The notes under the pieces: model-generated
Seen by the model: only the letters and a program-made list of their open reading frames with translations
The model's database searches: none
Told to the model about the DNA's origin: nothing
Shown here: positions 3,148 to 30,753 of the stretch, piece after piece
Numbering within the stretch: the stretch's first letter is position 1
Layout of the letters: each line of letters starts with the position of its first letter
Virus record (IMG/VR): IMGVR_UViG_3300025016_000004
Strand: one strand, 5' to 3'
Length of the DNA: 64,000 bases
Origin: a virus
Taxonomy: Duplodnaviria > Caudoviricetes
Translations under genes and position numbers: made by a program

Positions 3148-3951
3148 TTAATCCTTTTTTTCGTAAAGAATTACCCTATCATTGATATGGTAACATTCTT
3201 TTTTTGCTAAAGATAACCACCATCTGGATTCATCCATAGATAGCTCTTTTTTATATGTATTGAAAAGGCTTCCTTCTCTATCGTTAACATGTTTGTAAGC
3301 CAATTTTGGGATTACTTTAACTCTGCATGGATTGTAAGTCATTCTTAATAGAAATTCATAAATAAAACTTAATTTAATACTTTCTTTAAGCCCACCATAT
3401 TCTTCATAAGCTTCTTTAAGTACCGCCATTCCATCAATGTTAAAGTTTTGGTATCTTAATAATGCTGCATTATCTAAGACACCAAGTTCATCTGAAAATT
3501 GTGAAGCCCAAACAGCTTCATTCGTAAAGTTCAAAAATTGGTCATTAGGTGTAACATCTAATATCATCGGTAAGAAGATATTTACGTTAGGGTCATCTTT
3601 TCTATATTTAATTACGTTATCAACCCATATAGTAGCTATCTCATCATCTTGTTCAAGGAAAATAAACCATTCTGTTTTAGATTCTTTAACACCTAAATTT
3701 AATTGAGCTTGAAAATTTGTGTCACCTTCATTAGCAACAACCCTAAAATTTAATGTTTTTTCAAACTCACTTTTTAATTTTAATGCTAATTTATAGTCAT
3801 CAGATTCTGCTTTAGCCACCAAAATTAATCCATCTGGTTTTACCTTTTGATTATTAACGCTAGTTACAGCCCTTCTTAAGAAAGTTTCATCAGCTTCAAA
3901 CACTGGAATAATTACACTTATTTCGTTTTTTTCTTTCATCTTATTTTTCAT
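3148..3951 (-). CDS. Glycosyltransferase family 2
   Basis: ISVIIPVFE N-terminal strand, IFLEQDD DxD-like motif. Confidence 0.8.
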   Translation of the reverse strand: MKNKMKEKNEISVIIPVFEADETFLRRAVTSVNNQKVKPDGLILVAKAESDDYKLALKLKSEFEKTLNFRVVANEGDTNFQAQLNLGVKESKTEWFIFLEQDDEIATIWVDNVIKYRKDDPNVNIFLPMILDVTPNDQFLNFTNEAVWASQFSDELGVLDNAALLRYQNFNIDGMAVLKEAYEEYGGLKESIKLSFIYEFLLRMTYNPCRVKVIPKLAYKHVNDREGSLFNTYKKELSMDESRWWLSLAKKECYHINDRVILYEKKD

Positions 3952-5032
3952 TTTTTTCTTCTATTTGTAATAATGTTTCGAATTCAGCTTTTCTGCTAGA
4001 AACAAAATTAGTATATAACTCTTTTATTAATTCAGCTTCTTTTTCTTCAGTAAATAAATCTTTAGAGTCATTGATTCCATCAATAAATTCTTGAGGAATT
4101 GAATCTTCTAACCAAGCTCTCATAAATTCAGCAATTAAATTTGGTATCGCTAAAATATCGTTGGTCCAAATACCATTATTTTTTAATTTAATACTATTTG
4201 AAGTTGAATCTTCACTTTCCATCCATTCTGGTACCATATCAGGTATTTTACCAATTACTGGTGTGTTACATTGAATTGATTCCAATGGAAACGTACCGAA
4301 GCTAGAAATATCATCTACCCATACAGCTAAACAAGATTCACCTAATTGTTCAGCAAATGTTTTTCTAGGCAAGCCTCTTAATTCCCTAAATGTAATCCAC
4401 TTATACATTGGATATCTAAGGTAAAAAGCTTTAACTATTTTTAGAGCTGATTTTTGGTCCCTAGTTAAGATTGATATAATTGGTTTTTTTAATTTTTCAC
4501 TAGGTTTAAAATACTCTGGAATAGACGGTGCTACAATATGAGTTTTTATACTAGGAAATAAACTTTTGATATAATCAGCTTGTTTTTGACTACTTGTTAT
4601 TACATCTCTAAAACCATAATTTAAATCCCATCTTTCAGTCATTTTTAATAATTCTAAAATATAAGTATATGATTGAGATAATACTATTTTCTTACATGGA
4701 AATTCTTTTACCTGTTCCATTACGTTAGCAAAAATTTCAGGTATGATTAAATAATCAATTGCAGTTAAATTTAATTTTTGTTCTTCGATTGATACGTGAG
4801 GTAAACTTGAATAGCTTTCACCTAACCAATCACCAACACCATGGTAATCATTTTTTTCATGTAAGATACTGGCTTTGTAGCCTAAATCATTTAATATTTT
4901 TACGTGTTCGTAAATATTGGCAATCCCAGCTGTTGGATTTCCTTTAGTGTCTAGAGTAAAGAAATAAAAACCAAAATCTTTATTATCTATTTTCTCAATT
5001 AACTGTAATACTTTTTCTTGTTTACTTTCCAT
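3941..5032 (-). CDS. GT-B (GT4-like) glycosyltransferase
   Basis: GIANIYEHVKILN, SFGTFPLESIQCNTPVIG (GxxxxEAMxxGxPVI-like). Confidence 0.7.
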   Translation of the reverse strand: MESKQEKVLQLIEKIDNKDFGFYFFTLDTKGNPTAGIANIYEHVKILNDLGYKASILHEKNDYHGVGDWLGESYSSLPHVSIEEQKLNLTAIDYLIIPEIFANVMEQVKEFPCKKIVLSQSYTYILELLKMTERWDLNYGFRDVITSSQKQADYIKSLFPSIKTHIVAPSIPEYFKPSEKLKKPIISILTRDQKSALKIVKAFYLRYPMYKWITFRELRGLPRKTFAEQLGESCLAVWVDDISSFGTFPLESIQCNTPVIGKIPDMVPEWMESEDSTSNSIKLKNNGIWTNDILAIPNLIAEFMRAWLEDSIPQEFIDGINDSKDLFTEEKEAELIKELYTNFVSSRKAEFETLLQIEEKNEK

Positions 5033-5036
5033 TTTT

Positions 5037-5387
5037 TTAATTCATTTTTTTTAATATTCCATAAGCTAATAGCGTGTTAAAGGCCAATTTAAACCTAATA
5101 CTAGTCTTATCTAAATTATTACGACCTAACATTGGGTCGTCTTCTTTTTCATCTGTCTCATCACCTAAATCAGTAATGAATTGTCTGATTAACTCAAACT
5201 TAACTCCATTAATTTCTTTATGTTTTATATGTTCTTTTGTGGTAAGCCACCTATCAGTTGTGCCATTATGATTAATTTTTTCCACCTTTTTTTTAGTTTC
5301 AACTATATCTTCTTTATCATCAAAGGCTAAAAAAACATCAAGTTCTTCAAAATCTATATAATATAAATCACCAAATATTTTAATCAT
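5037..5387 (-). CDS. Hypothetical protein
   Basis: 116-aa ORF overlapping the upstream gene, operon context. Confidence 0.7.
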   Translation of the reverse strand: MIKIFGDLYYIDFEELDVFLAFDDKEDIVETKKKVEKINHNGTTDRWLTTKEHIKHKEINGVKFELIRQFITDLGDETDEKEDDPMLGRNNLDKTSIRFKLAFNTLLAYGILKKMN

Positions 5388-5958
5388 TATTTATAATTTT
5401 ATTAAACATATCTTCGTCATTAACGAAGTCTAAAATGCTGTCTAATTCATAATCAGCTTCAACATTTTTGTTATAAGACGCATTTATCTTAACAGAAAAT
5501 TTACCTTCTGGTTTAGCTTCTAATGCGATTGGGTTTGCAGTAACTAAAATGTCAATACCATCCCATTTTTTGGTTGTGTCTGTTACAAACTTAATATTAT
5601 CACCAGTGAACCCTAATTTAGATAAAAAGAAGAGTGTTGAAGGTCTGCTTTTATGTGCATCCCTACTAATGATTACAATCTCATGTTCCTCATAATCATT
5701 TATATCAGCTATAAATCTATTTAAAATTGGTCCGATGTTATTATGTAACTGGTCCGCATGTGCATATATTTCCATTGGTGCCTCGCTATAAAGAAATTCA
5801 TTTAATTTTGTTTCATTTGGAAATTGGAAATATTTTAATAAATCCCATTCCTCAATTACAACATCATCTAAATCTTCATTATAGTATTTACCATAAACAT
5901 ATTTTAGTTGTCCGATGAAGTCACGTATGACCTCATTTAAGCTTATTCCTATTCTCAT
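5380..5958 (-). CDS. HAD-fold 5'(3')-deoxyribonucleotidase-like protein (motif I degenerate)
   Basis: MRIGISLNEVIRDF start and overall layout resemble phage NT5C/HAD proteins. Confidence 0.55.
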   Translation of the reverse strand: MRIGISLNEVIRDFIGQLKYVYGKYYNEDLDDVVIEEWDLLKYFQFPNETKLNEFLYSEAPMEIYAHADQLHNNIGPILNRFIADINDYEEHEIVIISRDAHKSRPSTLFFLSKLGFTGDNIKFVTDTTKKWDGIDILVTANPIALEAKPEGKFSVKINASYNKNVEADYELDSILDFVNDEDMFNKIINND

Positions 5959-6006
5959 ATTATTATTTTACTAATTTTTTATTGAAAGTAAACAAAAAGA
6001 TAAAAA

Positions 6007-7812
6007 TTATTTATCAGTGTCTGGTTTTTTATAATTCCTAACCATTTTAGTTATTAATGGATTTCTAACGATATCATTTTCATCAAATTCAAAGAACCCA
6101 ATTTCATCGATATTTCTATGTCTATTCATGGCATCATATAACCCCGTTTTAGTGGCATCATCATATCTATCAGATTGGTCCATATCTCCAGAAACAATAT
6201 ATTTTGAACCGTACCCGATTCTAGTTAAAAGACTTTTCATTTGAGATGGTGACATATTTTGAGCTTCCTCACCGATTAAGATTGAATTATCTAAGGTTTT
6301 ACCTCTAATAAAACCCAAAGGTTCAACCATTAATTCTTTAGAATCTTCTAATTTCCTTCTAGCATCTTCACCTATAATTTTATCAACAATGTCGATTGAT
6401 GCAGCTAAATATGGCTCTAGTTTTTCTTTTAGATTTCCAGGTAAGAATCCTAAGTTCTCTTCAGCTTCAACGGCTGGTTTAACTATTAAAATTTTATTGA
6501 ATGAATTATCTGGGTCTTGAAGTAGTTCTAAAGCTACTGCGATAGCTACGAAAGAATTATGTGTAACTATGAAGTTATCTGTAATATATAAAGAATCTTT
6601 ACTATCAATTGAGATACATTTAGCTTCTGATTGACCTATAGGTTCTATGTCAGTGATATAACGTTTTGGTATATATTTAGTTTTAGGTTTAACTAATTGT
6701 GCTTTTCTTTTTAATTTAAATGGATTAACCTCTGGTGGTAGTGATATAGTTAAGGTGTATGCTTTTTTACATAAAATTTTTTCACCATTATTATCAATAT
6801 ATGAACCTATTTTATCGTTTAACTTAAAAACACCCCCTAAACTATTAACGATAAAACAAACTCCATCAATTAAATCTTTAGATGTGTTAGTGAAAAATGT
6901 GGAAGTACCATTCTTATTTACATAACCATCGGTATCCATTAACCCTCTTAATACTTCTAATCTAACTTTTTTAGTATTAAAAAGGTATTTATCTGGTATT
7001 TTTTTATTTATTGTTGCAATATTTTTTAAGTTTAATTCATTTAAATTATTTAAAATTTCATTATTATTATTTTCACCAATAATTGAGTATTGATACTTAC
7101 CACTTTTTTTATTTATTGTGTGATAATCATTTAATCTTTCGGAAATAAGTTCTACGATTTCAGTATCTTGAGTTGTAAATGTAATTCTATTTTGCGTTAA
7201 ACCACCATCACCTAATAAACATCCTAGAACATAGGGGTCAATAAATAATTCCTTTTCTTCAAATTCAATTGATTTAACTAATGGGATTGTGTGATTTTTA
7301 TCACCTCTACTGGTATTTAAGGTTTCCATTATTTCACTCAAAGGTTTTACATGACCCTTTCTGGGTGAGTAAAATCTTTTACCACCTTTTTTTACTCTAT
7401 AATTTCTATCGTAATATGTGTCAGTTAACCATAAATGCTCATCACAACAATCTGTATAAGAACTATCATTAAAATATACCCTATAAATTTCTTTAATACC
7501 TTGAGGGTGAATTTGAATAACTTTTGTTGGTTTACCTTCAGGGGTTAAAACTTCATCACCAACTCGTATCTCACCCATAGTAGTCCAACCGTTAGGTGTA
7601 AGTATTTTAGAATACAATGGTTGTGCTTTCCCTACGCCAGCAGGCCCAGAACAAAGAACAATTTCTTTCTCTTTAATTAAATTTACAAAATCTTTTTGTT
7701 TAGTGTTTTTGCACTTTAATCTTACCTTGAGTGGTAAGATTTTATTTACAGACCTTTCCTTTGTGGTTGGTTGTGTTGGTGTACTTGTTGTACTTCTTTT
7801 ACCTTTTGCCAT
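6007..7812 (-). CDS. phoH: PhoH-family ATPase containing an intein
   Basis: Walker A GPAGVGK|S split by the intein; LGFLPGNLKEK, RGKTLD, EEAQN, GDMDQSD, IVRNPLI are PhoH motifs. Confidence 0.95.
   Translation of the reverse strand: MAKGKRSTTSTPTQPTTKERSVNKILPLKVRLKCKNTKQKDFVNLIKEKEIVLCSGPAGVGKAQPLYSKILTPNGWTTMGEIRVGDEVLTPEGKPTKVIQIHPQGIKEIYRVYFNDSSYTDCCDEHLWLTDTYYDRNYRVKKGGKRFYSPRKGHVKPLSEIMETLNTSRGDKNHTIPLVKSIEFEEKELFIDPYVLGCLLGDGGLTQNRITFTTQDTEIVELISERLNDYHTINKKSGKYQYSIIGENNNNEILNNLNELNLKNIATINKKIPDKYLFNTKKVRLEVLRGLMDTDGYVNKNGTSTFFTNTSKDLIDGVCFIVNSLGGVFKLNDKIGSYIDNNGEKILCKKAYTLTISLPPEVNPFKLKRKAQLVKPKTKYIPKRYITDIEPIGQSEAKCISIDSKDSLYITDNFIVTHNSFVAIAVALELLQDPDNSFNKILIVKPAVEAEENLGFLPGNLKEKLEPYLAASIDIVDKIIGEDARRKLEDSKELMVEPLGFIRGKTLDNSILIGEEAQNMSPSQMKSLLTRIGYGSKYIVSGDMDQSDRYDDATKTGLYDAMNRHRNIDEIGFFEFDENDIVRNPLITKMVRNYKKPDTDK
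6556..7626 (-). mobile_element. Class 3-type intein (357 aa) with LAGLIDADG endonuclease in PhoH P-loop
   Basis: Starts AQPL, block B DEHLW, block F AKCISID, ends VTHN|S; HEN motifs LGCLLGDGG and LRGLMDTDG. Confidence 0.9.
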
Positions 7813-7816
7813 AAAA

Positions 7817-7845
7817 AAATGTGAGCTTTTTAATAACTCACATTT
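7817..7845 (-). terminator. Hairpin plus U-tract directly upstream of phoH start codon
   Basis: AAATGTGAG-11nt-CTCACATTT followed by TTTT ATG on the minus strand. Confidence 0.4.
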
Positions 7846-7882
7846 AATATAATCACAAAAAATAAAAATTAAATAATAAAAG

Positions 7883-8851
7883 CTATATTTTAGCTTCTTT
7901 ATTTTCGTAGCGTTTTTCTAATTCAGCTAACTTGTACTTTTCGAATATGTTATCTCCATTTACTGTAACTTCAGCAATGAATTTAATTACATAGTGTCCG
8001 TTAAATTCAACGATTTTATCGAATTTTTTTACCTCATATTCATATTCTAAACCATCAATTGCACCTATGGTTTTATCAGTAATGAAACCAATCTTAGTAA
8101 TATCAAGTATATTTGAAGCTCTAGGGTTTTTTATAGCTTTTTTAATTTCACCTATTAAAAATTTGGTTTTCTTATCATATTCATCTTGGTAAGAAGATAC
8201 GTAAAATTCCAATAATTTTTCAGTTTCGTTGATATTTCTAACTAACAATTTTTTGGCATAATATTCAATTTCAAATTTCGGTCTAATATCCCTGTCCACA
8301 TATAGAGCCTTTTTTGATTGCATTGTGGACACCATATCATCAAAAGAAATCTCAGCCAACGTATTACCACTCCAAACATCCGCACCAACTAAATCAAACA
8401 TTATTTTACCATCAATAGGTGTATTATCACCTTTTGGGTTAAGTTTTAATTTATCGTTGCTGAAGGCTTCATAAGCTGATTTGGTGATGTCTTCATTCAT
8501 GACAACTAGCTCAACTGGATACGGGTCGAAGTTATCACGGGTTACTTTATCTAATTTATATTTCTCAATATTATAGGTTTCAACTATTGGTAATCCATCA
8601 GCATCATAACCAACTATTTTAGCTGTTTTATTTTTAGATTCACTTAAAACTTTATACAACCGCCATCTCAACTCTTTAACTTGTTGATTCGTTATCTGAT
8701 TTTTTAACCCATGTAATAATGTACCTTGGTCCTTTTCTATTATTAATCCAACACCTGACAAGTCGGAAGTTTTTGATTGAGATAATATCTTTTTATCAAA
8801 AACTGATAAACCAATCAAAAGCCCCATAATTTTATTTTTTATCCACGTCAT
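7883..8851 (-). CDS. Hypothetical protein whose first ~60 aa are supplied by the upstream HEG cassette
   Basis: ATG at 8851 (MTWIK...) preferred to GTG 8875; overlaps the HEG stop by 20 nt. Confidence 0.8.
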   Translation of the reverse strand: MTWIKNKIMGLLIGLSVFDKKILSQSKTSDLSGVGLIIEKDQGTLLHGLKNQITNQQVKELRWRLYKVLSESKNKTAKIVGYDADGLPIVETYNIEKYKLDKVTRDNFDPYPVELVVMNEDITKSAYEAFSNDKLKLNPKGDNTPIDGKIMFDLVGADVWSGNTLAEISFDDMVSTMQSKKALYVDRDIRPKFEIEYYAKKLLVRNINETEKLLEFYVSSYQDEYDKKTKFLIGEIKKAIKNPRASNILDITKIGFITDKTIGAIDGLEYEYEVKKFDKIVEFNGHYVIKFIAEVTVNGDNIFEKYKLAELEKRYENKEAKI

Positions 8852-9596
8852 ATTTGTATTGCCATTTAAATCCACCCGTTTTATTTCTTTTACCTAAACA
8901 AACCGCACTTATTTTACCTCTAATTATATTTAATTCTTTTTCAGCTTCCCCAGCGTGTGACCATAATTTAATTATTTCACCATCTAACCCAATTTGGTAG
9001 ACGTGTTTTCTTTTATTAGAAACTTCACCCTTTTTACTTTCACTTATTTTAGCCCTAACTACTTCACTAACTATTCTACCTGTTAATTTTTTTGATAGTT
9101 TTATTTTAGTTTCTTCTGATGTAACTCTCCCCATATTAGCTTTACTAATTTTTAATTTAGTTTCTTTGGACAATTTACTACCAGTTCTTAATTTTTTCAT
9201 TCTAATAGAAATCTCTTTTGAATATCTTTTAGCTAAATTCGACATTTTTTTCTTGGTTTCATCACTATGCTTATGCCCTATATTACCATGACCACCCTCA
9301 TTACAATTTAAACCAAACTTAAAACAATCATAATGTTTAATCCAATACTTTTCACGATTATTTAAATATTCTTTATTTACCCCACATAAACATTCTTCGA
9401 TTATTTCATAAGTATCAACAGGGTTCCATTTATGTTTTTCGCAACTAGCCCATAATTTTATTTGCGATTTAAAACCCCCCTTTTTATAATTATATTTTCT
9501 TTTTTTATTATTTATTGTTTGACCTATATAAATTTTACCGTTTGGGCTAGTTAATTTATAAATATAACCCTTTACATTTCTTAAATCTTTTTTCAT
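8832..9596 (-). mobile_element. Free-standing GIY-YIG homing endonuclease with NUMOD3/NUMOD1-type DNA-binding repeats
   Basis: GYIYKLTSPNGKIYIGQT, HSDETKKKMS repeats, C-terminal IIKLWSHAGEAEKELNI...KTGGFKW. Confidence 0.9.
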
Positions 9597-9642
9597 AAAC
9601 ACTATTTATTAATAAATATATAATTTTTAATAAAAGTGAAAA

Positions 9643-9828
9643 TTATTCTTTAACAGGCATCGTTATCTCACCTCGTAATAGAGCATCAGCTAACATGCCT
9701 TGTTGATATGTTTGTTCCATGGAACCAATATCACCCAAAGCGTCAGACTTTTGAGTTAGCATGCTCTTTTCAACCCTAGATAATGATAGGGATAGTAATG
9801 CGAATTTTCGTTTTAAGTAGTTAAGTAT
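9643..9828 (-). pseudogene. Stranded original 5' end of the 7883..8851 gene (61 codons, ATA at the presumed start)
   Basis: ILNYLKRKFALL...QQGMLADALLRGEITMPVKE* aligns ungapped with MTWIKNK...DQGTLL...QQVKE. Confidence 0.8.
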
Positions 9829-12634: not shown

Positions 12635-12637
12635 ATT

Positions 12638-13684: not shown

Positions 13685-13688
13685 TATA

Positions 13689-19883: not shown

Positions 19884-19886
19884 ATT

Positions 19887-22838: not shown

Positions 22839-23620
22839 AATTCTAATAATTTAACCCATTTTTGTATTATTTCTTCATTGGTTAAGCTCTCACCATCATG
22901 TACCGTTGCATCGTTGCCAAAAAATTTAGTTCCAGTGGTTTCGCACTCATCTTTAACCAAAGACGCCACTTCACTTTTTGATGACATAAATACAGCACCT
23001 ACCATATCGTACATCCCTTGTTTATCACCAATAAAACCATATTCAATTACATCCTCACTTACCAATGGTTTTACGTAGTTATTATAATATGGACTATCAT
23101 TTACAGTACCAAATAAAATTACTTTTTCATAACCCTCACTTAAAGCTCTTTGTATTGAAGTGTGGGTTTGTTTATTCTCATCAATTGAACCTATTATCCC
23201 AGCAACCTTTTCAACTTCAGGTGATTTTTCTTTTTTCGCTAAAACTTCTTTTAGGTTAGGGATAATTTCATATTTACCATAATATCCACTATGATACATT
23301 TGTTGTTTCTTATTTAAAAATACGGCAGTATCCCAATATTTTTTCACTTTAGCAACTTCAAATATATTCTTTTCATGACAACATAAAATTGTTTTTTTTA
23401 CATCTAATTTATTAGGTAATTGTAAAAAATGTGCAATAACAACATCATCTTTAGATGGTCTGAATTTATTTAGTTTATCAGCTTTACACTTATCTAAATG
23501 CCAATCGTGTGGCCCATAGAATGTTGTTTCATAACCAGCTTCATTTAAAGCGTTTGTTAATCTAACAAATGCAAATGTAGAACCACCTTTTTCACTCCAA
23601 CCTGATATTATTTTTATCAC
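22835..23620 (-). CDS. GT-B glycosyltransferase-like protein
   Basis: SGWSEKGGST, IGSIDENK, SSKSEVASLV. Confidence 0.6.
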   Translation of the reverse strand: MIKIISGWSEKGGSTFAFVRLTNALNEAGYETTFYGPHDWHLDKCKADKLNKFRPSKDDVVIAHFLQLPNKLDVKKTILCCHEKNIFEVAKVKKYWDTAVFLNKKQQMYHSGYYGKYEIIPNLKEVLAKKEKSPEVEKVAGIIGSIDENKQTHTSIQRALSEGYEKVILFGTVNDSPYYNNYVKPLVSEDVIEYGFIGDKQGMYDMVGAVFMSSKSEVASLVKDECETTGTKFFGNDATVHDGESLTNEEIIQKWVKLLEL

Positions 23621-24705
23621 GCTAATATTTTTTTATATTTTCCCACGTAATCTTCTAATTTAATTTCAGGGTCTATCTTAGTATAGGTTATTTCTGGAAA
23701 AAATTTAGGTAAAACTGCTTCAATTGGTTCAGATGGCCCCACAGTATGAACAATATCATAATTTAAAGGTTTAAATTTATATAATTTACCTTCTTCTGAT
23801 TTTACATTTCCGTTAGGTGTCTTCATTTCGAATTTACCATCACCTTTAATAAAACCTCTAGGAGTGTCTAAAGGGAAAAAATCAATTTTATCCGCTTTAT
23901 ATAATTTAAATGCTTCTGCATCAAATTGTGAGGTTACAGTAACAAAATGACCATCATCTTGTAATAGTTTGGCTAAATCAAATGCAAGCTCCATTGTTAT
24001 TGAAGCTAATAAGATTCTGAATTTATGGTCATCTTTAAACTCTCTACTAATCTTTATTGGTAAATCCTCTTTATATTTCTCAGCAAAAAGACCTCTATTA
24101 ACTTCCCATTGGTCATTGGTTTCACCAATTGACATATGGTTGATTGAAATATTTGTGTGAACTCCAATCTTAACCCCATCTAAATAATTCCTAAAACAAA
24201 AATCAATATCATAAAAATGAAAACCTTCAACAGATTCATCAAAATTATGTTTAAGCCTAGATTTCATTACTGAAAAAAATACACCATCAACAACAACCGC
24301 TTCTTCAATATGATTATTTTGGTCTTCGCTATAACTTGATAATGTTTTTTTACCCTGATGAGTGTGCCAAACACGCCCATACATAGTTTTCCTATCTTCC
24401 CACCATCTACCAGTATCAGCTAAGTATTTTGTACCAGCAACACCTAAAATACCATAATCAGAATTATCATAATGCTTTAATAATTTTTTAGCAAATTGCT
24501 TGGTTTGAATTTCTATATCGTGGTGTAAGAAAACCACAACATCAAATTTAGAATCGTTTAAACCTTTATTATATATTTCAGTTAATGAAAATTCACCTTC
24601 ATTTTTATAAGCTAAAAATTCTACTTTAGGGTGCCCCGCCATTTTTTTTATACCCTTACCATAATCCGTCAAATCATGCGGTGAAGAACAAACAATACTT
24701 ATCAT
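23617..24705 (-). CDS. GT2-like glycosyltransferase with extra C-terminal domain
   Basis: YNKGL, VFLHHDI, VVVDGVF, FHFYDIDFC. Confidence 0.8.
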   Translation of the reverse strand: MISIVCSSPHDLTDYGKGIKKMAGHPKVEFLAYKNEGEFSLTEIYNKGLNDSKFDVVVFLHHDIEIQTKQFAKKLLKHYDNSDYGILGVAGTKYLADTGRWWEDRKTMYGRVWHTHQGKKTLSSYSEDQNNHIEEAVVVDGVFFSVMKSRLKHNFDESVEGFHFYDIDFCFRNYLDGVKIGVHTNISINHMSIGETNDQWEVNRGLFAEKYKEDLPIKISREFKDDHKFRILLASITMELAFDLAKLLQDDGHFVTVTSQFDAEAFKLYKADKIDFFPLDTPRGFIKGDGKFEMKTPNGNVKSEEGKLYKFKPLNYDIVHTVGPSEPIEAVLPKFFPEITYTKIDPEIKLEDYVGKYKKILA

Positions 24706-24721
24706 AATTTATATTTATTTA

Positions 24722-25075
24722 TTAATCGTTATCTTTCACAAAAATTCCATCAACCATTTTACCAGTTCTTTTTGAAATTACATTATAAGCTGACTCTAAA
24801 CAATCTTCTATTGTTAAACCTTGTATTTCAGTTTGAATTATTAGTGTTACTAATATATCACCTATTGCATCTTTAATCTCATGTTCAGTGTTTTTTAAAT
24901 TACCTTTAGGACAAGTAAATTCAAGATTACCCCTTTCTTGAGCATTTAATGCCATGGTTAATTCACCAACTTCTTCTAGAGTTTTTGTGTGTTGGCTAAT
25001 TGGTGTGGCTTTATCAAAAATAGTTTTATCTTTAGCCCAATCAATCACTTTTATATTTAATTCTTTAAAATTCAT
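24722..25075 (-). CDS. MazG-like nucleotide pyrophosphohydrolase
   Basis: KTLEEVGEL, IKDAIGDILVTL, CLESAYNVI. Confidence 0.85.
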   Translation of the reverse strand: MNFKELNIKVIDWAKDKTIFDKATPISQHTKTLEEVGELTMALNAQERGNLEFTCPKGNLKNTEHEIKDAIGDILVTLIIQTEIQGLTIEDCLESAYNVISKRTGKMVDGIFVKDND

Positions 25076-25679
25076 TTTTTTGTTTTAGTATATTAAGAGG
25101 TAATAACTTCTCTGTTTTTTTTTTATTATTTGACCACACTATTAATTCATCTAAAGTCACTCTACCATTATAATACGCCCATAATGTTGCGTTACCAAAT
25201 TGTTTATGTAACCATCTATGGTCAGATGGTGTTATTAATACTAAATTATTTGGGTCGTTATTATTAATATTACAATCTCTATGGTGGGTAATATACCCTT
25301 CTGGTAATTTATTAATATTTAACGTTTCAAATACAATTTTATGGTGTAACTTTATTCTACCAAATTTAGGTAAATAATCTAATTTATAACCACCGTCAGT
25401 TGTTACGTTTTCCCTAAAATTTGGGTTATTCTCACCTAAATATTCTTTTTTTCTAAAATTAGCAACACATTTAGTTGAACAGAAATAACCTTGACTTCTT
25501 TTATATCTTTTCTTAGAAGACTCTTTTAAATGAAACCCTACACCACATTGAGTACAGGTCGTATTAGGTTTACTTTTCCTAAAATTTGCTGAACACTCAA
25601 TACTACAAGTATGAGCGTTTTTAATTTGCTTCCCATATCTTTTAAATAGTTTACCACATATTTTACATTCTATTTCCAT
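25065..25679 (-). mobile_element. Free-standing HNH homing endonuclease with Cys-rich N-terminal repeats
   Basis: CxxC...CS.EC repeats; THHRDCNINNNDPNNLVLITPSDHRWLH. Confidence 0.85.
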
Positions 25680-25758
25680 AATTTTTTACCTTTAATATGA
25701 ATATAAATATAACGAAAATGGTTTTATTGAAAATATGGGTTAAATCTATTACACCGAC

Positions 25759-26328
25759 TTACTTAGCTAAAAATTTTTCTTCTATTATGGCTAATTTAAT
25801 GGCGATTTTTAAAACGTCACCTAACGTAGAATTGTACCATTCTGATTGTACATCATCAACTTTATCATAATTAACGATAGCCGCAAATTCTTCATCAGTT
25901 AATTTAATACCACAACTCAAAGCATAATAAGCTGAACGCTCACCAACTTTCATTGAGACTAAATCATTATTGAAATCGTAGAACTTACCTCTTTTTTCTC
26001 TTTGCCATGCGTCTTTTTCTGGAATGTATAATTTTACTTTACCAATTCCATGTAATAAAACCACTTTAAATAATGAATCTTCTTTTATTTTTAGCCCATC
26101 GGTTAAATTATTTTCATTTATTTTATATGCATGTTTCATAACTCTAAGTGTGTGGTCAATTAAACCACCCTCAAATGCATTGTTTAAATGCTCAAAGCTA
26201 GATTCTGGTGCTTTTATTAAATCTTCACCTAAAAGATTTTCCAATTCTTCTGTCATAGCACCATGTTTTCTCGCTGCTTCCAAATACCTTTTGGTATTCT
26301 TTACGATTTTTTCTTTTGTTAGTTCCAT
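25759..26328 (-). CDS. HD-domain phosphohydrolase-like protein
   Basis: AFEGGLIDHTLRV, LLHGIGK, GERS (YhaM-like layout). Confidence 0.7.
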   Translation of the reverse strand: MELTKEKIVKNTKRYLEAARKHGAMTEELENLLGEDLIKAPESSFEHLNNAFEGGLIDHTLRVMKHAYKINENNLTDGLKIKEDSLFKVVLLHGIGKVKLYIPEKDAWQREKRGKFYDFNNDLVSMKVGERSAYYALSCGIKLTDEEFAAIVNYDKVDDVQSEWYNSTLGDVLKIAIKLAIIEEKFLAK

Positions 26329-26329
26329 T

Positions 26330-26776
26330 TTATACCTCTGTTTTTATTTTTTTATTTCTAAGTCGTTCTTGAAGTTTTTGAAATGCTTCATCCAATTCTT
26401 TTATATCTGTCTTATGTTTTTTATAAGCCTCTATTTTATCCGATTCATCATTTTTTAGAAATTTTTTCATCCTAGCACTAATCCAAAGTGGTCTACGGTA
26501 GTTATATCGATTACCATATAAATCTAAGGCTCCCTTCAATTCTTCATTATACTTCTCCGCTTCTTTTATTGTTTTAATATCTGTGATGGAAGACTTATTT
26601 TTCTGGTACATTAAGTACTGAAGTCTTTTTTTATTTTCTTCTAAGAATGAATACAACGCTTCTTCTCTTGTTAGTTCCATAGGTCTAACAAAATCTTTAT
26701 TTACCAACGAATATAATATCCTAATTATATAAATTGATATCTTTGATAATACACTTTTAATTGTTTTTATATTCAT
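26330..26776 (-). CDS. Hypothetical protein (start may be 26680)
   Basis: 148-aa ORF in operon. Confidence 0.6.
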   Translation of the reverse strand: MNIKTIKSVLSKISIYIIRILYSLVNKDFVRPMELTREEALYSFLEENKKRLQYLMYQKNKSSITDIKTIKEAEKYNEELKGALDLYGNRYNYRRPLWISARMKKFLKNDESDKIEAYKKHKTDIKELDEAFQKLQERLRNKKIKTEV

Positions 26777-26807
26777 TTTTACTTAAAATATTCATAACGC
26801 AATTATA

Positions 26808-29188
26808 CTACTTTTCAGTGCCAAAAACAAGTTTTTTGTAATATTTAGCACGATTTTCTGTAACTTTATCCATTGAGTAGGTTTCAGCCACAGTATTATA
26901 TAAATTATCCCCAAGTATTTTTATCATCTCAGGGTTTTGTATCAATTTTTTAAGGTATTGATACCATTGTTTATGATTCCTATGAGAATCAACCAATAAA
27001 CCATTTTTAGTTAAATCAATTTCACCACCTTTTTGAAATGCATTTTGAATATCAATTGTATAAGGACCATAATTTTGAGCGATTAACGCCTTTTTATGGA
27101 AACCGCTTTCAATTACCTTTAATTGACTTTTAACTTTATTGAAGGTATGTTCAGTCAACGGTGCTAATGAAATATCAAATAAATTATAATTGGTCGCATA
27201 ATTGGTGATTGGTTTTGTCCAAACTCTTCTGTACGGCTCTTGCATAATGCTAGGGAATTCTTCAGTCACATATCTCAATAAATGCTCTTTATATTCTTTT
27301 GAAATTGTCGTATAATCATTGGTGAATATTTTTTCATATTCACACCAAACTGTTTCGTGTGGTAATATATCTCTTTGAGTTTGTTCACCTGTATCTTTGT
27401 TAATTGAATTAACCTTACCTCTAGTATCAAACCCACATAACACAAATTGTATTTTATCTAATAACCCGTCACCTTTTAATTTAGAAACTAATTGATTTAA
27501 TAATTTTAAATCTGCTAAATGACTATTCCCAATCCAAAATGCTTTACCATTTCGTCTAATATATATTATATGATTTTGAACTTCAACGCAATAAACATTT
27601 CCTTTATAATATTTTTTATATTGGTCATCTGTTTTAATTAAAGGGGTATTTTTATTATGTTTACTAACACTAGGGTGTTTTGTAAAATTAACAACTAATG
27701 AATCAAATTGGTTAGTGATTTTACGGCCTTTAATCATAGACGTTCTTTTACCTCGATTAGTAATGGTGGCTGAAATACCTAATTTTAATGCCATTTCTTG
27801 TAAATCATTGGCTAACGCTGATGAAGAGGTAAAAGCTCTAGTTCTACCATATTTGTTATTTTCAATATGACCATCACCATTAATAAACCATTCTAAAAAT
27901 ATCTTTAATTGCCTAGATGACAAATTTAATATTTCTTTAGGTATAAATTTTTCTGTAGCGGTACCAAAATCAGATAAATAATTCCATAATTGTTTATCAA
28001 AGACTCTCAATTGTTTTTTATCTTTAGTGTATTTTGGGTTAAATCCCATTTTAGTTAACAAATTAAACATATGCTCCAAATAATGATTATCTTTAGATTG
28101 AGCAATACCTACTTGATGTAAACCCTTACTTTTACTAGTCCAACCTTCAGCCATCCAAAAGCCGAAAAACTCTAACCAATCATTCATTTCTATCATAGTA
28201 TCAGTCCCATATTTTTCATATAAATCAACCCCATACTTATTTTTTTTATGTCCTTTTATAAAATTTTCATTATAAGCTTCTTCAAATTCGAACTTTAATT
28301 CAGTATAACTAGCTAAATTAGGTAATATAAAATATTCTACCTCATTACCAATCCAATTAGCATTTTTTCTAACATGAAAATTTTTACCATATATTTTTTC
28401 TGATTGTACTAACCCTAAATTCAATTTTTTATGAGTTAAATTCTTAGCTTCTGATGCGTACATATTATGGTTTGGTGTAACTTCATACTCAATTAACCCA
28501 TTTTTAGCACAATTTAATTCACCATCGAATGGTTCACATATATACCCACTTGGTTTATGATATTCCAAATAATTAGTTTCTGGGTTTAATGTTACTACTT
28601 TTTCAGTCTTATCTAACTCATCAAATCGTTTCCAACCACCATCAGTTAAAATTTCGGTATCTGGAGTCATACAACTCCCACCTAACCAACCAATTCTGAT
28701 TTTATCAGAAGGTTCTGGGTTTGAAGTGTATTGTTTTTCTGTTGGGTCAATAGCATTTGGTAAGACTACAACATTCTTGTTATGTTTTTTAATTTCATTT
28801 GCAAAAATTTCTGTTGTTGTTATAATATTCTCAGCAATTTTTAAATTATTAAGGATTTTTTTATCCAAATCATTATTTTTTATAATATGATATGCTGGGT
28901 GAGTCATATCTGGTAACCAATAATCATCTAAATCCATAACTGTAGGGATTCCTAATGATTTTAATTTTTCTAATAATCCTTCCATTTGGTCATAATTACC
29001 CAAAGCTCTATGATAATGAATTAGGTCGTATTGTTTTAACCAATCGTCATCATGTAATTTTGGCTCATATTCAATATCCACATGAAATTCATCTGGATAT
29101 AATTTTTCTAAATGTAAGTTTGGCTTGGTTGAACGAAAATAGCTCAACTTACCCCAGTACGGTCTGAAGGGACTACAAGTATCTTCAT
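26808..29188 (-). CDS. GT-B (GT4-like) glycosyltransferase with intein; first 14 codons out of frame with the body
   Basis: MKILVVPSDRTGVS* (29188-29144) then SYFRSTKP... in another frame; MDLDDYW, PNAID, GWLGGS|SH, KSQLKVIESG. Confidence 0.8.
27525..28673 (-). mobile_element. Intein (383 aa) with LAGLIDADG endonuclease in glycosyltransferase
   Basis: Starts CMTPDTEILT, VTPNH block B, ends WIGN|S; FFGFWMAEG and FLEWFINGDG. Confidence 0.9.
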
Positions 29189-29975: not shown

Positions 29976-30004
29976 AAATTATTTATTAATAAATATGGAA
30001 AAAT

Positions 30005-30125: not shown

Positions 30126-30153
30126 AAAAAAACCCACTTAAAGTGGGTTTTTT
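30126..30153. terminator. Intrinsic terminator
   Basis: AAAAAAACCCACTT-A-AAGTGGGTTTTTT. Confidence 0.8.
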
Positions 30154-30750: not shown

Positions 30751-30753
30751 TTT

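What the first reader, a model, noticed from the sequence alone, without database searches (positions are those of the whole stretch)
3148..29188. About 26 kb phage glycan-synthesis island with about 12 glycosyltransferase domains
It carries a complete GDP-mannose to GDP-fucose route (Gmd, Fcl), two GT11 fucosyltransferase-like genes, a GT17, a C-methyltransferase, RfbH and two reductase/epimerase genes. It is co-oriented with a gp55-like sigma factor, and very Ser/Thr-rich fibre proteins lie nearby. This could build a complex fucosylated, methyl-branched glycan on virions (virion glycosylation is established for some mycobacteriophages), or remodel the host surface or DNA.
Basis: partly seen in the sequence, partly recalled or inferred. 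Interest (0 to 1): 0.7.

Follow-up and report, generated by a model that had tools for sequence, protein, structure and literature searches.

The report
Variable sugar-chain locus of giant phage
A giant uncultured groundwater phage carries about 18 intact genes that turn GDP-mannose into several rare sugars and join them into a complex chain without any membrane or export parts. The genes sit in a slot whose content is swapped between related phages, much as bacterial O-antigen loci vary between strains, but what the chain is attached to is still unknown.

Summary
Window 3148-30075 (minus strand) holds 18 glycan genes (19 kb). They include Gmd, an Fcl domain fused to a GT2, a sugar C-methyltransferase, an E1/RfbH-type 3-dehydratase, a short RmlD-like reductase and 11-13 glycosyltransferase domains.

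The stretch is not one uniform island. It is cut by PhoH, nucleotide-metabolism genes, three homing-endonuclease genes and three inteins.

New here:
- The core 8.9-23.6 kb is a hypervariable cassette in a conserved frame (GT2_5 ... u330-PhoH-u192-u116-GT-B-GT2-gp55-like sigma). At least 537 viral contigs share that frame.
- A relative with a 72-81% identical frame carries a wholly different sugar set.
- No island protein has a membrane segment. There is no initiating transferase, flippase, polymerase or ligase.
- The C-methyltransferase belongs to a virus-dominated clade and sits beside Gmd in 66 of 80 viral and 69 of 80 cellular loci.

Best reading: three GDP-4-keto-6-deoxymannose branches (fucose, a 3-C-methyl-6-deoxyhexose, a 3,6-dideoxyhexose) feed soluble transferases. 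The acceptor is undecided: virion proteins about 0.4, host envelope glycans about 0.3, DNA unlikely.

This scan found the same kind of locus before on other DNA (e1-5374127, e1-4648148, e1-792445). Comparable clusters are published for jumbo cyanophages. I class it as a new variant of a known kind.

The parts
30127..30153 (.). Bidirectional intrinsic terminator (12-bp stem) just upstream of the glycan transcription unit
30004..30075 (-). Stub of the original GT4 N-terminus (contains KILVVPSDRTGVSY, then runs into a stop), displaced by a homing-endonuclease cassette
29208..29975 (-). Free-standing homing-endonuclease gene (NUMOD3 plus a DUF559/MTES_1575-like nuclease domain)
29144..29188 (-). 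Replacement GT4 N-terminus (MKILVVPSDRTGVS, then TGA). The GT4 body continues in the -1 frame. The break is identical in contigs of four sequencing runs
26808..29147 (-). GT4-like GT-B glycosyltransferase. It is conserved in relatives as a 403-410 aa protein. It carries a 383-aa LAGLIDADG intein at 27525-28673, inserted at the motif WLGGS|SH
24722..26776 (-). Non-glycan insert: u148, an HD phosphohydrolase, an HNH endonuclease and MazG. Relatives have an exonuclease, dUTPase, HD and MazG at this position
23617..24705 (-). GT2_5 glycosyltransferase (PF13712), the conserved upstream flank of the variable cassette
22835..23620 (-). Possible short GT-B-like protein, supported only by language-model neighbours that carry Glycos_transf_1
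22092..22838 (-). GT2_4 glycosyltransferase (PF13704)
21412..22092 (-). Weak, atypical SDR-like protein (Gly-rich N-terminus, a YxxxK motif); candidate 4-ketoreductase
20690..21415 (-). GT2 glycosyltransferase
19887..20696 (-). GT11 (alpha-1,2-fucosyltransferase family), PF01531, E 6.7e-28
17433..19883 (-). E1/RfbH-type PMP-dependent 3-dehydratase. It has His at the Lys position. A 383-aa class-1 intein (17988-19136) sits between WWGRD and CYCVG, inside the [2Fe-2S] Cys motif
16756..17445 (-). Short RmlD-like NDP-4-keto-sugar reductase (229 aa) with the STDY and YGYTK motifs. Homologues of the same length exist; one lies next to an RfbH-like gene in L050
16046..16759 (-). GT2 glycosyltransferase
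15172..16068 (-). Diverged GT11-like glycosyltransferase (GLGNQ motif)
14345..15181 (-). GT17-family glycosyltransferase (PF04724, E 1.6e-20)
13689..14348 (-). DUF3431 protein. Its predicted fold weakly resembles GT-A transferases; the best match is Bacteroides ovatus GT6 (BoGT6a), E 5e-4, TM about 0.4
12638..13684 (-). GDP-mannose 4,6-dehydratase (Gmd)
11405..12634 (-). NDP-hexose C-methyltransferase of a virus-dominated clade; lacks the N-terminal zinc domain of TylC3/TcaB9
9829..11412 (-). Fusion protein: an N-terminal GT2 domain (about 10753-11412) and a C-terminal GDP-L-fucose synthase domain (about 9832-10731)
8832..9602 (-). GIY-YIG/NUMOD3 homing-endonuclease gene
7883..8875 (-). u330: conserved gene of unknown function at the downstream boundary of the cassette (34 of 80 lineage loci, 39-90% identity)
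7817..7845 (-). Intrinsic terminator (11-bp stem plus a T run) that ends the cassette unit before PhoH
6007..7812 (-). PhoH with a 357-aa intein (6556-7626) in the P-loop (GVGK|A...HN|S). The near-identical relatives L162 and L164 lack the intein
5037..5958 (-). u192 and u116: conserved backbone genes of unknown function
3941..5032 (-). Lineage-core GT-B glycosyltransferase (AF2 mean pLDDT 81). Best solved fold is 8XSG (AmGGT) of the Actinobacillus Agt family, E 1e-13
3148..3951 (-). Lineage-core GT2 glycosyltransferase
2395..3141 (-). gp55-like late sigma candidate, conserved directly behind the GT2 gene in 77 of 80 lineage loci

Best explanation
The locus is a working, phage-owned glycan factory. 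Steps are marked as shown or inferred.

1. Substrate (inferred): the host supplies GDP-mannose. No manA, manB or manC lies here.
2. First step (shown at family level): Gmd makes GDP-4-keto-6-deoxy-D-mannose.
3. Three enzymes compete for that intermediate (family shown, products inferred):
   a. The Fcl domain gives GDP-L-fucose, used by the two GT11-type transferases.
   b. The C-methyltransferase adds a methyl branch, most likely at C-3. The Fcl domain or an SDR then reduces the keto group, giving a 6-deoxy-3-C-methylhexose of the virenose/evalose type.
   c. After its intein splices out, the E1-type iron-sulfur 3-dehydratase removes the 3-hydroxyl, using host ferredoxin- or flavodoxin-type reductases. 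The adjacent short RmlD-like reductase then gives a 3,6-dideoxyhexose.
4. Assembly (inferred): eleven to thirteen soluble transferases of at least six families build a complex branched chain in the cytoplasm. No lipid-carrier initiation, flipping, polymerisation or ligation gene is present.
5. Genomic setting (shown): the sugar genes occupy a swappable cassette between conserved flanks in a large phage lineage. Related phages make different chains, like serotypes.
6. Acceptor (inferred, the weakest step): the phage's own virion proteins (fibres or head decoration), as in mycobacteriophages and giant viruses.
For: Enzyme identities and intact catalytic motifs:
- The 3-dehydratase has His at the Lys position (AHH). 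All Fe-S cysteines are restored once the intein is removed. Its best solved relative is Yersinia E1, 3BCX.
- The Fcl domain keeps its Ser/Cys/Tyr/Lys/His residues.
- The C-methyltransferase matches TylC3, TcaB9 and KijD1.

Linkage of the C-methyltransferase to a GDP-sugar:
- Gmd lies within 10 kb of it in 66 of 80 viral loci and 69 of 80 cellular loci.
- The triad Gmd, C-methyltransferase and GMER (the Fcl-type epimerase/reductase) is the route proposed for virenose in Coxiella (PMC3539893).
- The RfbH-like gene and the short reductase are neighbours both here and in L050.

No membrane machinery:
- No protein between 2395 and 33013 has a 19-residue window with mean hydropathy above 1.6.
- No Pfam match to phosphoglycosyl transferase, Wzx, Wzy, ABC-transporter, ligase or oligosaccharyltransferase families.

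Swappable cassette in a conserved frame:
- Shown by the gene-order comparisons.
- Relative L170 has a 72-81% identical frame but carries a Polysacc_synt_2 dehydratase, GT25, GT10 and a CmcI-type O-methyltransferase instead.

The genes are long resident in viruses:
- The C-methyltransferase sits in a virus-dominated clade (100% SH-aLRT) that is sister to the CPR bacteria.
- GC content is flat across the locus.

Leaning towards a virion acceptor:
- Four transferases (GT4, GT2_5, GT-B363, GT2a) are conserved beside the gp55-like gene across the lineage.
- The nearest solved fold of GT-B363 is the Agt/AmGGT family, which elongates glycans on soluble acceptors in the cytoplasm.
- Fibre genes lie 3 kb away.
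- Two contigs labelled as giant-virus bins carry the same C-methyltransferase.

Sequence quality: the 20 kb is reproduced with 0-1 differences in contigs of four runs.
Against: - Nothing was measured: no sugar, no glycoprotein, no transcript.
- GT2, GT4 and GT11 enzymes of ordinary O-antigen loci are also soluble. The lack of membrane genes therefore does not exclude use of host undecaprenyl-linked acceptors and host export.
- The box ATATTTATA precedes fibre and other structural genes, but it does not stand at the head of either glycan transcription unit. Co-expression with virion genes is thus not indicated.
- No E3-type reductase for the 3-dehydratase was found in the window.
- The nucleotide carrier of the dehydratase and methyltransferase substrates is inferred from neighbourhood only.
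- The conserved GT4 gene has a frame break after codon 14, present in all four runs. It may be dead.
- Fold similarity of a GT-B enzyme at 18% identity does not define its acceptor.
Confidence: 0.4

Rival explanations
1. Host-surface remodelling. The same sugar pathways operate, but the soluble phage transferases act at the inner face of the membrane on host undecaprenyl-linked O-antigen, capsule or general O-glycan intermediates. Host flippase, polymerase and ligase then export the altered chain. This blocks superinfection by rival phages, or stops progeny sticking to debris. It is the function proposed for the LPS and capsule clusters of jumbo cyanophages.
For: - The published interpretation of comparable clusters is host-surface remodelling (Iyer et al. 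2021, PMC7824862).
- The transferase families here (GT2, GT4, GT11, and GT25 and GT10 in relatives) are typical of O-antigen and capsule loci.
- Hypervariability between close relatives fits an arms race at the cell surface, or matching to different host glycans.
- The glycan units lack the box that precedes structural genes.
- From general knowledge: Bacteroidota make fucosylated surface glycans.
Against: - There is no initiating transferase, flippase, polymerase, ligase or any membrane protein. The phage would depend wholly on the host export system accepting a foreign 10-plus-sugar chain.
- Four of the transferases are lineage-core and sit beside a sigma factor and conserved phage genes, unlike typical accessory host-modifying genes.
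- The key enzyme clade is virus-dominated and has no Bacteroidota isolate among its relatives.
- No integrase or lysogeny gene was seen in the window.
Confidence: 0.3
2. DNA hypermodification. Some of the transferases attach sugars to hydroxymethylated bases of phage DNA to evade restriction and CRISPR, and the neighbouring nucleotide-metabolism genes belong to the same system.
For: - MazG, HD and PhoH genes here, and dUTPase and an exonuclease in relatives, are interleaved with the conserved GT4 and GT2_5 genes.
- Phage GT-A and GT-B enzymes are known to hypermodify DNA with diverse glycans (bioRxiv 10.1101/2023.12.21.572611).
Against: - Known DNA-glycosylating clusters lie beside a thymidylate-synthase-type hydroxymethylase, or beside a 5-methylpyrimidine dioxygenase with a C5-methyltransferase. 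No such family was detected in any scanned reading frame of the window.
- Twelve transferases and three deoxysugar branches far exceed any known DNA glycan.
- GDP-deoxyhexoses are not known DNA-sugar donors.
- GT-B363 matches GT4-type enzymes best. T4 beta-glucosyltransferase is not among its 50 best fold matches.
Confidence: 0.07
3. The glycan is made on some other soluble or secreted target: a free oligosaccharide, a glycolipid or small-molecule glycoside, or a host cytoplasmic protein.
For: - The machinery is carrier-free and soluble.
- AmGGT, the nearest solved fold of GT-B363, uses free oligosaccharides as acceptors.
- Iyer et al. raise a secondary-metabolite role for part of the cyanophage clusters.
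Against: - No polyketide, peptide or lipid scaffold genes are present.
- There is no precedent for a 12-transferase product of this kind in a phage.
Confidence: 0.13
4. Decaying or inert cargo. The cassette is a recently captured bacterial locus being eroded by selfish elements and makes nothing useful.
For: - Three inteins and three free-standing endonuclease genes lie in 26 kb.
- The GT4 gene has a frame break.
Against: - 17 of the 18 glycan genes are uninterrupted, tightly packed ORFs, and the sugar-nucleotide enzymes keep their catalytic motifs.
- The RfbH intein keeps the canonical splice residues; the GT4 intein ends in Gly-Asn, without the usual penultimate His, and the PhoH intein starts with Ala.
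- GC content equals that of the rest of the genome.
- The sequence is clonal across four runs at 17-79x depth.
- The enzymes belong to virus clades.
Confidence: 0.03

Closest known systems
LPS / capsular-polysaccharide gene clusters of jumbo cyanophages (e.g. P-SSM2; reviewed by Iyer et al. 2021, PMC7824862)
   Same: Both are phage-borne clusters of NDP-sugar enzymes (Gmd and Fcl are common) plus several paralogous transferases from many families. Both are polymorphic between related phages, and in both the function is untested.
   Different: - This locus is in a different phage lineage, one with Bacteroidota-like genes, from groundwater.
- It lies in a defined slot between conserved flanks, next to a gp55-like gene.
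- It adds a C-methyl branch and an E1-type 3-deoxygenation.
- It is heavily colonised by inteins and homing endonucleases.
- No kinase or nucleotidyltransferase genes are present, so GDP-mannose must come from the host.
Proposed GDP-virenose route of Coxiella burnetii (CBU_0689 Gmd, CBU_0691 C-methyltransferase, CBU_0688 GMER; PMC3539893)
   Same: It uses the same enzyme triad acting on GDP-4-keto-6-deoxymannose to give a 6-deoxy-3-C-methylhexose.
   Different: - The Coxiella route is itself only an in-silico proposal.
- The phage methyltransferase belongs to a separate clade and lacks a zinc domain.
- Here the Fcl domain is fused to a GT2 domain.
- The Coxiella product goes into LPS through normal membrane machinery.
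Yersinia E1 (AscC/RfbH/DdhC, PDB 3BCX) and E. coli ColD (PDB 2GMS)
   Same: All are PMP-dependent 3-dehydratases of the DegT family with His in place of the catalytic Lys. The phage enzyme also keeps the four-Cys [2Fe-2S] motif of E1.
   Different: - E1 acts on a CDP-sugar and has a dedicated E3 reductase. Here the neighbour is Gmd (a GDP-sugar enzyme) and no E3 is present.
- ColD acts on the GDP-sugar but has no iron-sulfur cluster.
- An E1-type enzyme on a GDP-sugar has, to my knowledge, not been characterised.
- The phage gene carries an intein exactly in the cluster-binding motif.
Virion glycosylation of mycobacteriophages (Freeman et al. 2023, cited in PMC12619734) and of giant viruses (PBCV-1, Mimivirus; from general knowledge)
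   Same: In those systems, virus-encoded soluble transferases, and in giant viruses also sugar-nucleotide pathways, decorate capsid, tail or fibril proteins without the usual host lipid-carrier route. Gene sets in giant viruses are clade-specific.
   Different: Mycobacteriophages carry only one to a few transferases and no sugar pathways. Giant viruses infect eukaryotes. For this phage no virion glycan has been observed.
Bacterial O-antigen / capsule loci (hypervariable cassette between conserved flanking genes)
   Same: The population-genetic architecture is the same: conserved flanks, wholesale replacement of sugar-pathway and transferase genes between close relatives, and exchange of modules between lineages.
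   Different: The phage locus has no Wzx/Wzy or ABC transporter, no initiating phosphoglycosyl transferase and no chain-length regulator. It also sits in a virus genome.
Moraphages (Perez-Hernandez et al. 2025, PMC12619734)
   Same: Both are large aquatic T4-like phages with predicted Flavobacteriia hosts. The moraphage core set includes four glycosyltransferase orthogroups, PhoH, dUTPase, a sigma factor and an exonuclease. The frame seen here and in relatives has the same inventory.
   Different: Membership was not tested, because no moraphage sequence was at hand. The paper does not describe a variable sugar cassette.

Membership tests
GDP-mannose 4,6-dehydratase (Gmd) | Full-length match to the Gmd-specific models | tested here: met
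   PF16363 covers profile positions 1-332 of 332 at 404 bits. TIGR01472 scores 391 bits, just under its equivalog cut-off of 415. The next family (dTDP-glucose dehydratase) scores only 116 bits.
GDP-L-fucose synthase (Fcl/GMER) | SDR with Ser-x-Cys, YxxxK and the epimerisation His; closest relatives are fucose synthases | tested here: met
   The motifs LSTCIFP, YGYAKRM and EDGHVIP align to human GFS (GDP-L-fucose synthase) 4E5Y (302 bits). All 18 best solved hits are GFS. The NCBIfam equivalog cut-off is not reached (228 bits against 500), and the domain is fused to a GT2 domain.
E1 / RfbH type NDP-hexose 3-dehydratase | DegT fold with His replacing the PLP-binding Lys | tested here: met
   FYPAHHISTGEGG aligns with wild-type E1 (3BCX, AHH); the H220K mutant 3BB8 reads AKH at this place.
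E1 / RfbH type NDP-hexose 3-dehydratase | Four-Cys [2Fe-2S] motif | tested here: met
   The DSCD motif lies upstream. After the intein is removed the sequence reads WWGRD-CYC...PCGTC. Intein-free homologues in L034, L019 and L050 show the same motif.
E1 / RfbH type NDP-hexose 3-dehydratase | Dedicated E3 reductase and CDP-glucose pathway genes (RfbF, RfbG) alongside | tested here: not met
   No ferredoxin-NADP-reductase-type protein, cytidylyltransferase or CDP-glucose dehydratase was found in the window. The neighbour is Gmd.
ColD (GDP-4-keto-6-deoxymannose 3-dehydratase) | No iron-sulfur cluster; shorter protein lacking the Cys insert | tested here: not met
   The phage protein scores 234 bits to E1 against 155 bits to ColD, and it keeps the Cys motif. 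ColD-like forms without the motif occur in other viral loci (L022, L031).
TylC3 / TcaB9 NDP-hexose 3-C-methyltransferases | C-methyltransferase C-terminal domain plus a SAM-binding domain | tested here: met
   PF08484, E 4.6e-45; PF13489, E 1.8e-9. The solved relatives are 4RV9, 3NDI and 5T64.
TylC3 / TcaB9 NDP-hexose 3-C-methyltransferases | N-terminal four-Cys zinc domain | tested here: not met
   Alignment to the solved enzymes starts at residue 41 of the phage protein and residue 63 of the solved chain. The first 25 residues hold no Cys. No zinc-domain family was reported.
Wzx/Wzy- or ABC-dependent O-antigen / capsule locus | Initiating phosphoglycosyl transferase, flippase or ABC transporter, polymerase, ligase (all membrane proteins) | tested here: not met
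   The highest 19-residue hydropathy is 1.52 for any protein between 2395 and 33013. No such Pfam family was found.
Phage DNA sugar-hypermodification cluster | Transferase adjacent to a ThyS-type hydroxymethylase, or to a 5mYOX dioxygenase with a C5-methyltransferase | tested here: not met
   None was found in any scanned ORF of the 64-kb window. The rest of the genome was not available.
Jumbo-phage LPS/capsule modification clusters (Iyer et al. 2021) | Several paralogous transferases of different families plus NDP-sugar enzymes, polymorphic between related phages | tested here: met
   At least six transferase families are present. Cassette content differs completely in 24 of 38 lineage loci.
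Virion glycosylation system (mycobacteriophage or giant-virus type) | Glycans demonstrated on capsid, tail or fibre proteins | not testable with these tools
   This needs particles or co-expression. Only context is available: fibre genes at 33074-42077 and core transferases beside the gp55-like gene.
T4 gp55 late sigma factor | Detectable homology to gp55 over most of its length | tested here: inconclusive
   A profile of 12 family members has gp55 (7D7C_F) as top solved hit, covering gp55 residues 5-146 of 185, but only at E 0.011. The Pfam Sigma70_r2 match is E 0.076.
Class 1 intein (RfbH and GT4 inserts) | Cys at position 1, terminal Asn, and a nucleophile at +1, inserted in a conserved motif, with intein-free homologues | tested here: met
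   RfbH: C...SHN|C. GT4: C...IGN|S, with no penultimate His. Intein-free alleles exist in relatives. The PhoH intein starts with Ala and ends HN|S.

The most novel reading that the evidence does not exclude
A whole lineage of large phages with Bacteroidota-like genes (at least 537 contigs) owns an autonomous, lipid-carrier-free protein-glycosylation system that dresses its virions in complex glycans. Four core transferases form a fixed scaffold. A swappable cassette gives each phage its own 'serotype'; here that is fucose, a GDP-derived 3-C-methyl-6-deoxyhexose, and a 3,6-dideoxyhexose made by an E1-type iron-sulfur dehydratase working on a GDP-sugar. This would be the bacterial-virus counterpart of giant-virus fibril glycosylation. 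It would also reveal two uncharacterised GDP-sugar reactions that are widespread in viruses, CPR bacteria and chlamydiae.
Probability: 0.35. Interest if true: 0.8.

Novelty: new variant of a known kind. Interest (0 to 1): 0.52.

Why it matters
- Phage particles are usually treated as bare protein. If large environmental phages routinely coat themselves, or their hosts, with self-made and strain-specific glycans, that would change how we think about adsorption, host range, defence evasion and particle survival.
- The locus gives a clean natural experiment: conserved flanks with swapped sugar cassettes.
- It points to two enzyme activities worth testing. One is a zinc-domain-less C-methyltransferase that is almost always paired with Gmd. 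The other is an E1-type 3-dehydratase apparently working on a GDP-sugar without a dedicated reductase.
- It shows that inteins and homing endonucleases can target sugar-pathway genes. That implies these genes are shared and conserved among co-infecting phages.

Tried and rejected
- Whole genome: none is held for this window. Genome-wide searches for hydroxymethylase, E3 reductase or capsid genes were therefore impossible.
- Megablast of 19 kb of the island against GenBank phages: no match. tblastn of GT-B363 against the same set: no match.
- T4 late-promoter motif TATAAATA: 29 hits against 24 expected, so not enriched.
- Sigma-70-type promoter scan: not above shuffles.
- The box ACTTGTTT stands in front of the old GT4 start, u148, the DNA polymerase gene and one mini-element. 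That is only four hits (6.3 expected), and only two share an extended motif. This is too thin to date the island's expression.
- Sequencing runs: no RNA holder listed. Contigs cannot show transcripts.
- PHROGs and Pfam at relaxed thresholds gave nothing for u116, u192, u330 and u148, or for the small genes at 30157-33013. The protein atlas gave no usable hit for u330.
- I first took u330 for an orphan. I dropped that after one search showed 34 lineage homologues.
- I considered the Fcl domain as ColC (colitose synthase). This cannot be separated from Fcl by sequence here and is kept as a possibility within branch (c).
- I considered the two short reductases as paralogues. They are not detectably related.
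- The DUF3431 fold gives only weak GT-A matches (TM 0.37-0.42), so I do not count it as an established transferase.

Full report
WHAT IS THERE

The window is 29% GC with densely packed genes and no Shine-Dalgarno sequences in front of them. It encodes a T4-type tail sheath, tail fibres, a family-B DNA polymerase and a helicase, so it is a large myovirus. Earlier notes of this scan call it a giant groundwater phage of Bacteroidota-type hosts. All 24 listed public runs that hold the stretch are groundwater or aquifer metagenomes. No whole genome is held.

From 33013 down to 111 every gene is on the minus strand. In transcription order the genes are as follows.

Upstream edge:
- A strong terminator at 30127-30153.
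- A 24-codon stub of a GT4 N-terminus (30075-30004).
- A homing-endonuclease gene (29975-29208).
- A recoded copy of that N-terminus (29188-29144).
- The GT4 body (29147-26808).

Non-glycan insert:
- u148, an HD hydrolase, an HNH endonuclease and MazG.

Fifteen back-to-back glycan genes:
- GT2_5, 23617-24705.
- A possible short GT-B protein, 22835-23620.
- GT2_4, 22092-22838.
- A weak SDR, 21412-22092.
- GT2, 20690-21415.
- GT11, 19887-20696.
- An RfbH-like enzyme, 17433-19883.
- A short RmlD-like reductase, 16756-17445.
- GT2, 16046-16759.
- A GT11-like gene, 15172-16068.
- GT17, 14345-15181.
- DUF3431, 13689-14348.
- Gmd, 12638-13684.
- A C-methyltransferase, 11405-12634.
- A GT2-Fcl fusion, 9829-11412.

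Downstream:
- A GIY-YIG endonuclease gene, then u330, then a terminator at 7817-7845.
- PhoH, u192, u116, a GT-B gene (3941-5032), a GT2 gene (3148-3951) and a gp55-like gene (2395-3141).

The label 'island' hides the fact that about 7 kb is not glycan-related.

THE ENZYMES

Gmd is unambiguous (404 bits to PF16363).

The Fcl domain keeps the catalytic Ser, Tyr and Lys, and the epimerisation Cys and His. It is closer to human GDP-fucose synthase (302 bits) than to the E. coli enzyme (175 bits). In relatives the GT2 and Fcl parts are separate genes on either side of the methyltransferase gene, so the fusion here is a local rearrangement.

The RfbH-like protein is not an aminotransferase. It has His at the Lys position, as do Yersinia E1 and ColD. 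A 383-residue LAGLIDADG intein (C...HN|C) sits between WWGRD and CYCVG. Intein-free homologues in other viral contigs show that splicing restores the E1 iron-sulfur motif. It is therefore an E1-type 3-dehydratase, not a ColD-type one. No E3 reductase and no CDP-glucose genes are in the window.

The gene next to it encodes a 229-residue RmlD-like reductase with the catalytic Thr-Asp and YxxxK motifs. Homologues of the same length occur elsewhere, one beside an RfbH homologue in L050.

The C-methyltransferase matches TylC3, TcaB9 and KijD1 but lacks their zinc domain.

Two unannotated proteins were folded:
- 3941-5032 has a clear GT-B fold (mean pLDDT 81; Foldseek E 1e-13 to 8XSG). 8XSG is AmGGT, which is more than 50% identical to the Actinobacillus Agt enzyme that elongates glucose on adhesins in the cytoplasm.
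- DUF3431 gives only weak GT-A-like matches.

Counting firm and supported cases there are 11 transferase domains, with 2 more as leads.

THE C-METHYL BRANCH IS A VIRAL HALLMARK

The methyltransferase has 378 relatives in viral contigs, up to 70% identical, and 267 in cellular genomes, all of them metagenome bins. A Gmd homologue lies within 10 kb in 66 of 80 viral loci and 69 of 80 cellular loci.

A maximum-likelihood tree puts all 40 viral sequences, the window's own sequence, and 6 bin contigs of scattered taxonomy in one clade with 100% SH-aLRT support. Those 6 are probably mis-binned phage DNA. The sister group is the CPR bacteria, followed by DPANN and other archaea, and then chlamydiae and verrucomicrobia. 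The only Bacteroidota-labelled relative is one short contig from a Flavobacteriales metagenome bin (L098), which falls inside the viral clade.

The gene is therefore old in viruses, not a recent capture from a host O-antigen locus. The Gmd, C-methyltransferase and GMER triad is the route proposed in silico for virenose in Coxiella. I infer a GDP-6-deoxy-3-C-methylhexose. Earlier reports of this scan reached the same inference on chlamydial and CPR DNA.

A SWAPPABLE CASSETTE IN A CONSERVED FRAME

The GT-B gene 3941-5032 has at least 537 relatives in viral contigs. In 80 fetched loci the order u330-PhoH-u192-u116-GT-B-GT2-sigma-like-u123-u484-u134 is kept; each of these genes is found in 34 to 80 of the 80 loci, and only u330 in fewer than 56. 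Identities reach 96-100% in L162.

Upstream of u330/PhoH the content changes completely. Of 38 loci with at least 9 kb of upstream sequence, 24 share none of this window's 14 cassette genes.

L170 has a frame that is 72-81% identical, yet it carries a Polysacc_synt_2 dehydratase, GT25, a CmcI-type O-methyltransferase, GT10 and another SDR. More distant relatives carry FkbM methyltransferases and an Rmd-like reductase with the same methyltransferase-Gmd pair. GT2_5, and further out GT4 beyond a few nucleotide-metabolism genes, form the other conserved flank.

Conversely, eight of this phage's cassette genes recur at 43-73% identity in contigs that lack the frame (L034, L019, L020). They are GT2, GT11-like, Fcl, the C-methyltransferase, GT2', GT17, DUF3431 and RfbH. 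Modules therefore move between phage lineages.

This is the architecture of a bacterial O-antigen locus, but inside a virus. With 15 genes this phage has an unusually large version; relatives have 3-10.

WHAT IS MISSING, AND WHAT THAT MEANS

No protein from 2395 to 33013 has a hydrophobic segment of membrane-spanning strength. No family of initiating transferase, flippase, ABC exporter, polymerase, ligase or oligosaccharyltransferase was found. The chain is thus assembled by soluble enzymes.

That fits direct glycosylation of a soluble acceptor, as in mycobacteriophage virions, giant-virus fibrils and the Actinobacillus NGT/Agt system. It does not exclude action on host lipid-linked intermediates, because ordinary O-antigen transferases are soluble too.

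For DNA modification the usual partners (ThyS-type hydroxymethylase, TET/JBP dioxygenase, C5-methyltransferase) are absent from the window, and the size of the machinery is out of proportion.

Timing gave no help:
- A box ATATTTATA stands 10-46 nt before the fibre genes, other structural genes and the endonuclease genes. It does not stand at the head of either glycan unit.
- The classic T4 late box is not enriched.
- No RNA data exist.

I therefore rank virion proteins first (about 0.4), because four transferases are lineage-core beside the gp55-like gene and because the key enzymes are viral. Host envelope remodelling comes second (about 0.3), which is the published guess for cyanophage clusters. 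Other soluble targets get about 0.13, DNA about 0.07 and decay about 0.03.

INTEGRITY AND SELFISH ELEMENTS

Contigs assembled separately from four runs reproduce 20 kb of the locus with 0-1 differences at 17-79x depth. These runs may include the source sample.

All enzymes but one are intact. The GT4 gene lost its start to an endonuclease cassette that brought a synonymously recoded copy of the first 14 codons. That copy ends in TGA and the body continues in the -1 frame. The break is present in all four runs. Whether it is bypassed is open, and it is the subject of other notes.

Three inteins sit in conserved motifs:
- The PhoH P-loop. The near-identical relatives L162 and L164 are intein-free, and their alignments stop exactly at the junction.
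- The iron-sulfur motif of the dehydratase.
- The WLGGS|SH motif of GT4.

Such elements spread only between genomes that share the target. Their presence argues that these sugar genes are common property of co-infecting phages rather than junk.

COMPARISON AND VERDICT

Phage-borne sugar and transferase clusters have been known in cyanophages since the first large genomes and are reviewed for jumbo phages. A recently described lineage of large aquatic phages of Flavobacteriia has four core transferase orthogroups plus PhoH, dUTPase and a sigma factor. That matches the frame seen here, though membership was not tested. This scan itself described a 17-gene island in a 428-kb groundwater phage with the same reading (e1-5374127).

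The finding is therefore a new variant of a known kind. Four things are new here:
- The sharply bounded cassette-in-frame architecture across hundreds of contigs.
- The three-branch use of GDP-4-keto-6-deoxymannose.
- An E1-type dehydratase in a GDP-sugar context.
- The load of inteins in sugar genes.

The acceptor of the glycan remains the open and interesting question.

Noticed in passing
window 33050-33058, 44114-44122, 47206-47214, 53505-53513(-), 33027-35(-), 25702-10(-); weaker form at 9612-9619(-), 29989-29996(-), 38939-46, 58900-07, 60528-35: A box ATATTTATA (weaker form ATATTTAT) stands 10-46 nt upstream of the start codons of fibre and other structural genes and of all three free-standing endonuclease genes. 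The full 9-mer has 13 hits against 8 expected. It looks like this phage's late-type promoter and differs from the T4 box TATAAATA. The endonuclease cassettes seem to bring their own copy.
   Followed up: partly
window 26790-26850 and 52960-53020, minus strand: The sequences upstream of u148 and of the DNA polymerase gene share an extended motif: AAAAAACTTGTTTTTGGC, then 13-14 nt, then T(A/T)T(A/T)ATTGC. It resembles a Bacteroidota-type -33/-7 promoter and is possibly the early or middle promoter class.
   Followed up: partly
L162:314-1057 and L164:8307-9032 versus window 6007-7812: Relatives whose PhoH is 92-96% identical lack the intein. Their alignments cover residues 1-63 and 420-601 exactly. 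A more distant relative (L192) has a 658-aa PhoH that does contain an intein. Together these give a natural pair of occupied and empty homing sites.
   Followed up: partly
window 7883-8875: u330 has no detectable family, but it is conserved in 34 of 80 lineage loci. It is always the last gene before PhoH, at the edge of the variable cassette. Here its 5' end overlaps the GIY-YIG endonuclease cassette. It is a candidate for a cassette-independent step such as acceptor recognition.
   Followed up: partly
window 33074-38926: This 1950-aa fibre protein is 18% Thr and has about 20 copies of a repeat containing GHTH...SEITDFP and LDGRYSLTG, followed by a YadA-head-like segment. It matches the Pfam 'phage tail repeat' family.
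   Followed up: partly
window 48412-52956 and 53769-56678: The DNA polymerase (1514 aa) contains an intein (Intein_splicing and LAGLIDADG matches). The helicase (969 aa) has an insert that matches intein-bearing ribonucleotide reductase families. The whole window is unusually rich in inteins and homing endonucleases.
   Followed up: no
L082, L084, L086, L088, L090, L098 (genome contigs): Six contigs from metagenome bins labelled Rhodoferax, Methylococcaceae, Bordetella, an alphaproteobacterium, an archaeon and Flavobacteriales carry a C-methyltransferase that falls inside the viral clade. They are probably phage contigs binned with cellular genomes.
   Followed up: partly
window 5380-5958: The u192 protein starts MRIGISLNEVIRDF. 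From memory this resembles the DxDxV start of 5'(3')-deoxyribonucleotidase-type HAD (haloacid dehalogenase superfamily) phosphatases, but with both Asp residues replaced. It may be an inactive HAD-like protein conserved in the frame. No family match supports this.
   Followed up: no
window 13689-14348 with 19887-20696 and 15172-16068: The weak best fold match of the DUF3431 protein is Bacteroides ovatus GT6, an enzyme that, from general knowledge, acts on Fuc-alpha-1,2-Gal acceptors. Two GT11-type (alpha-1,2-fucosyltransferase family) genes lie nearby. This hints at a blood-group-like epitope, but it is very speculative (TM about 0.4).
   Followed up: no
window 21385: This is the only base difference among four run assemblies over 20 kb (T>C in run X1). 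The phage population is nearly clonal across the sampled aquifer metagenomes.
   Followed up: no
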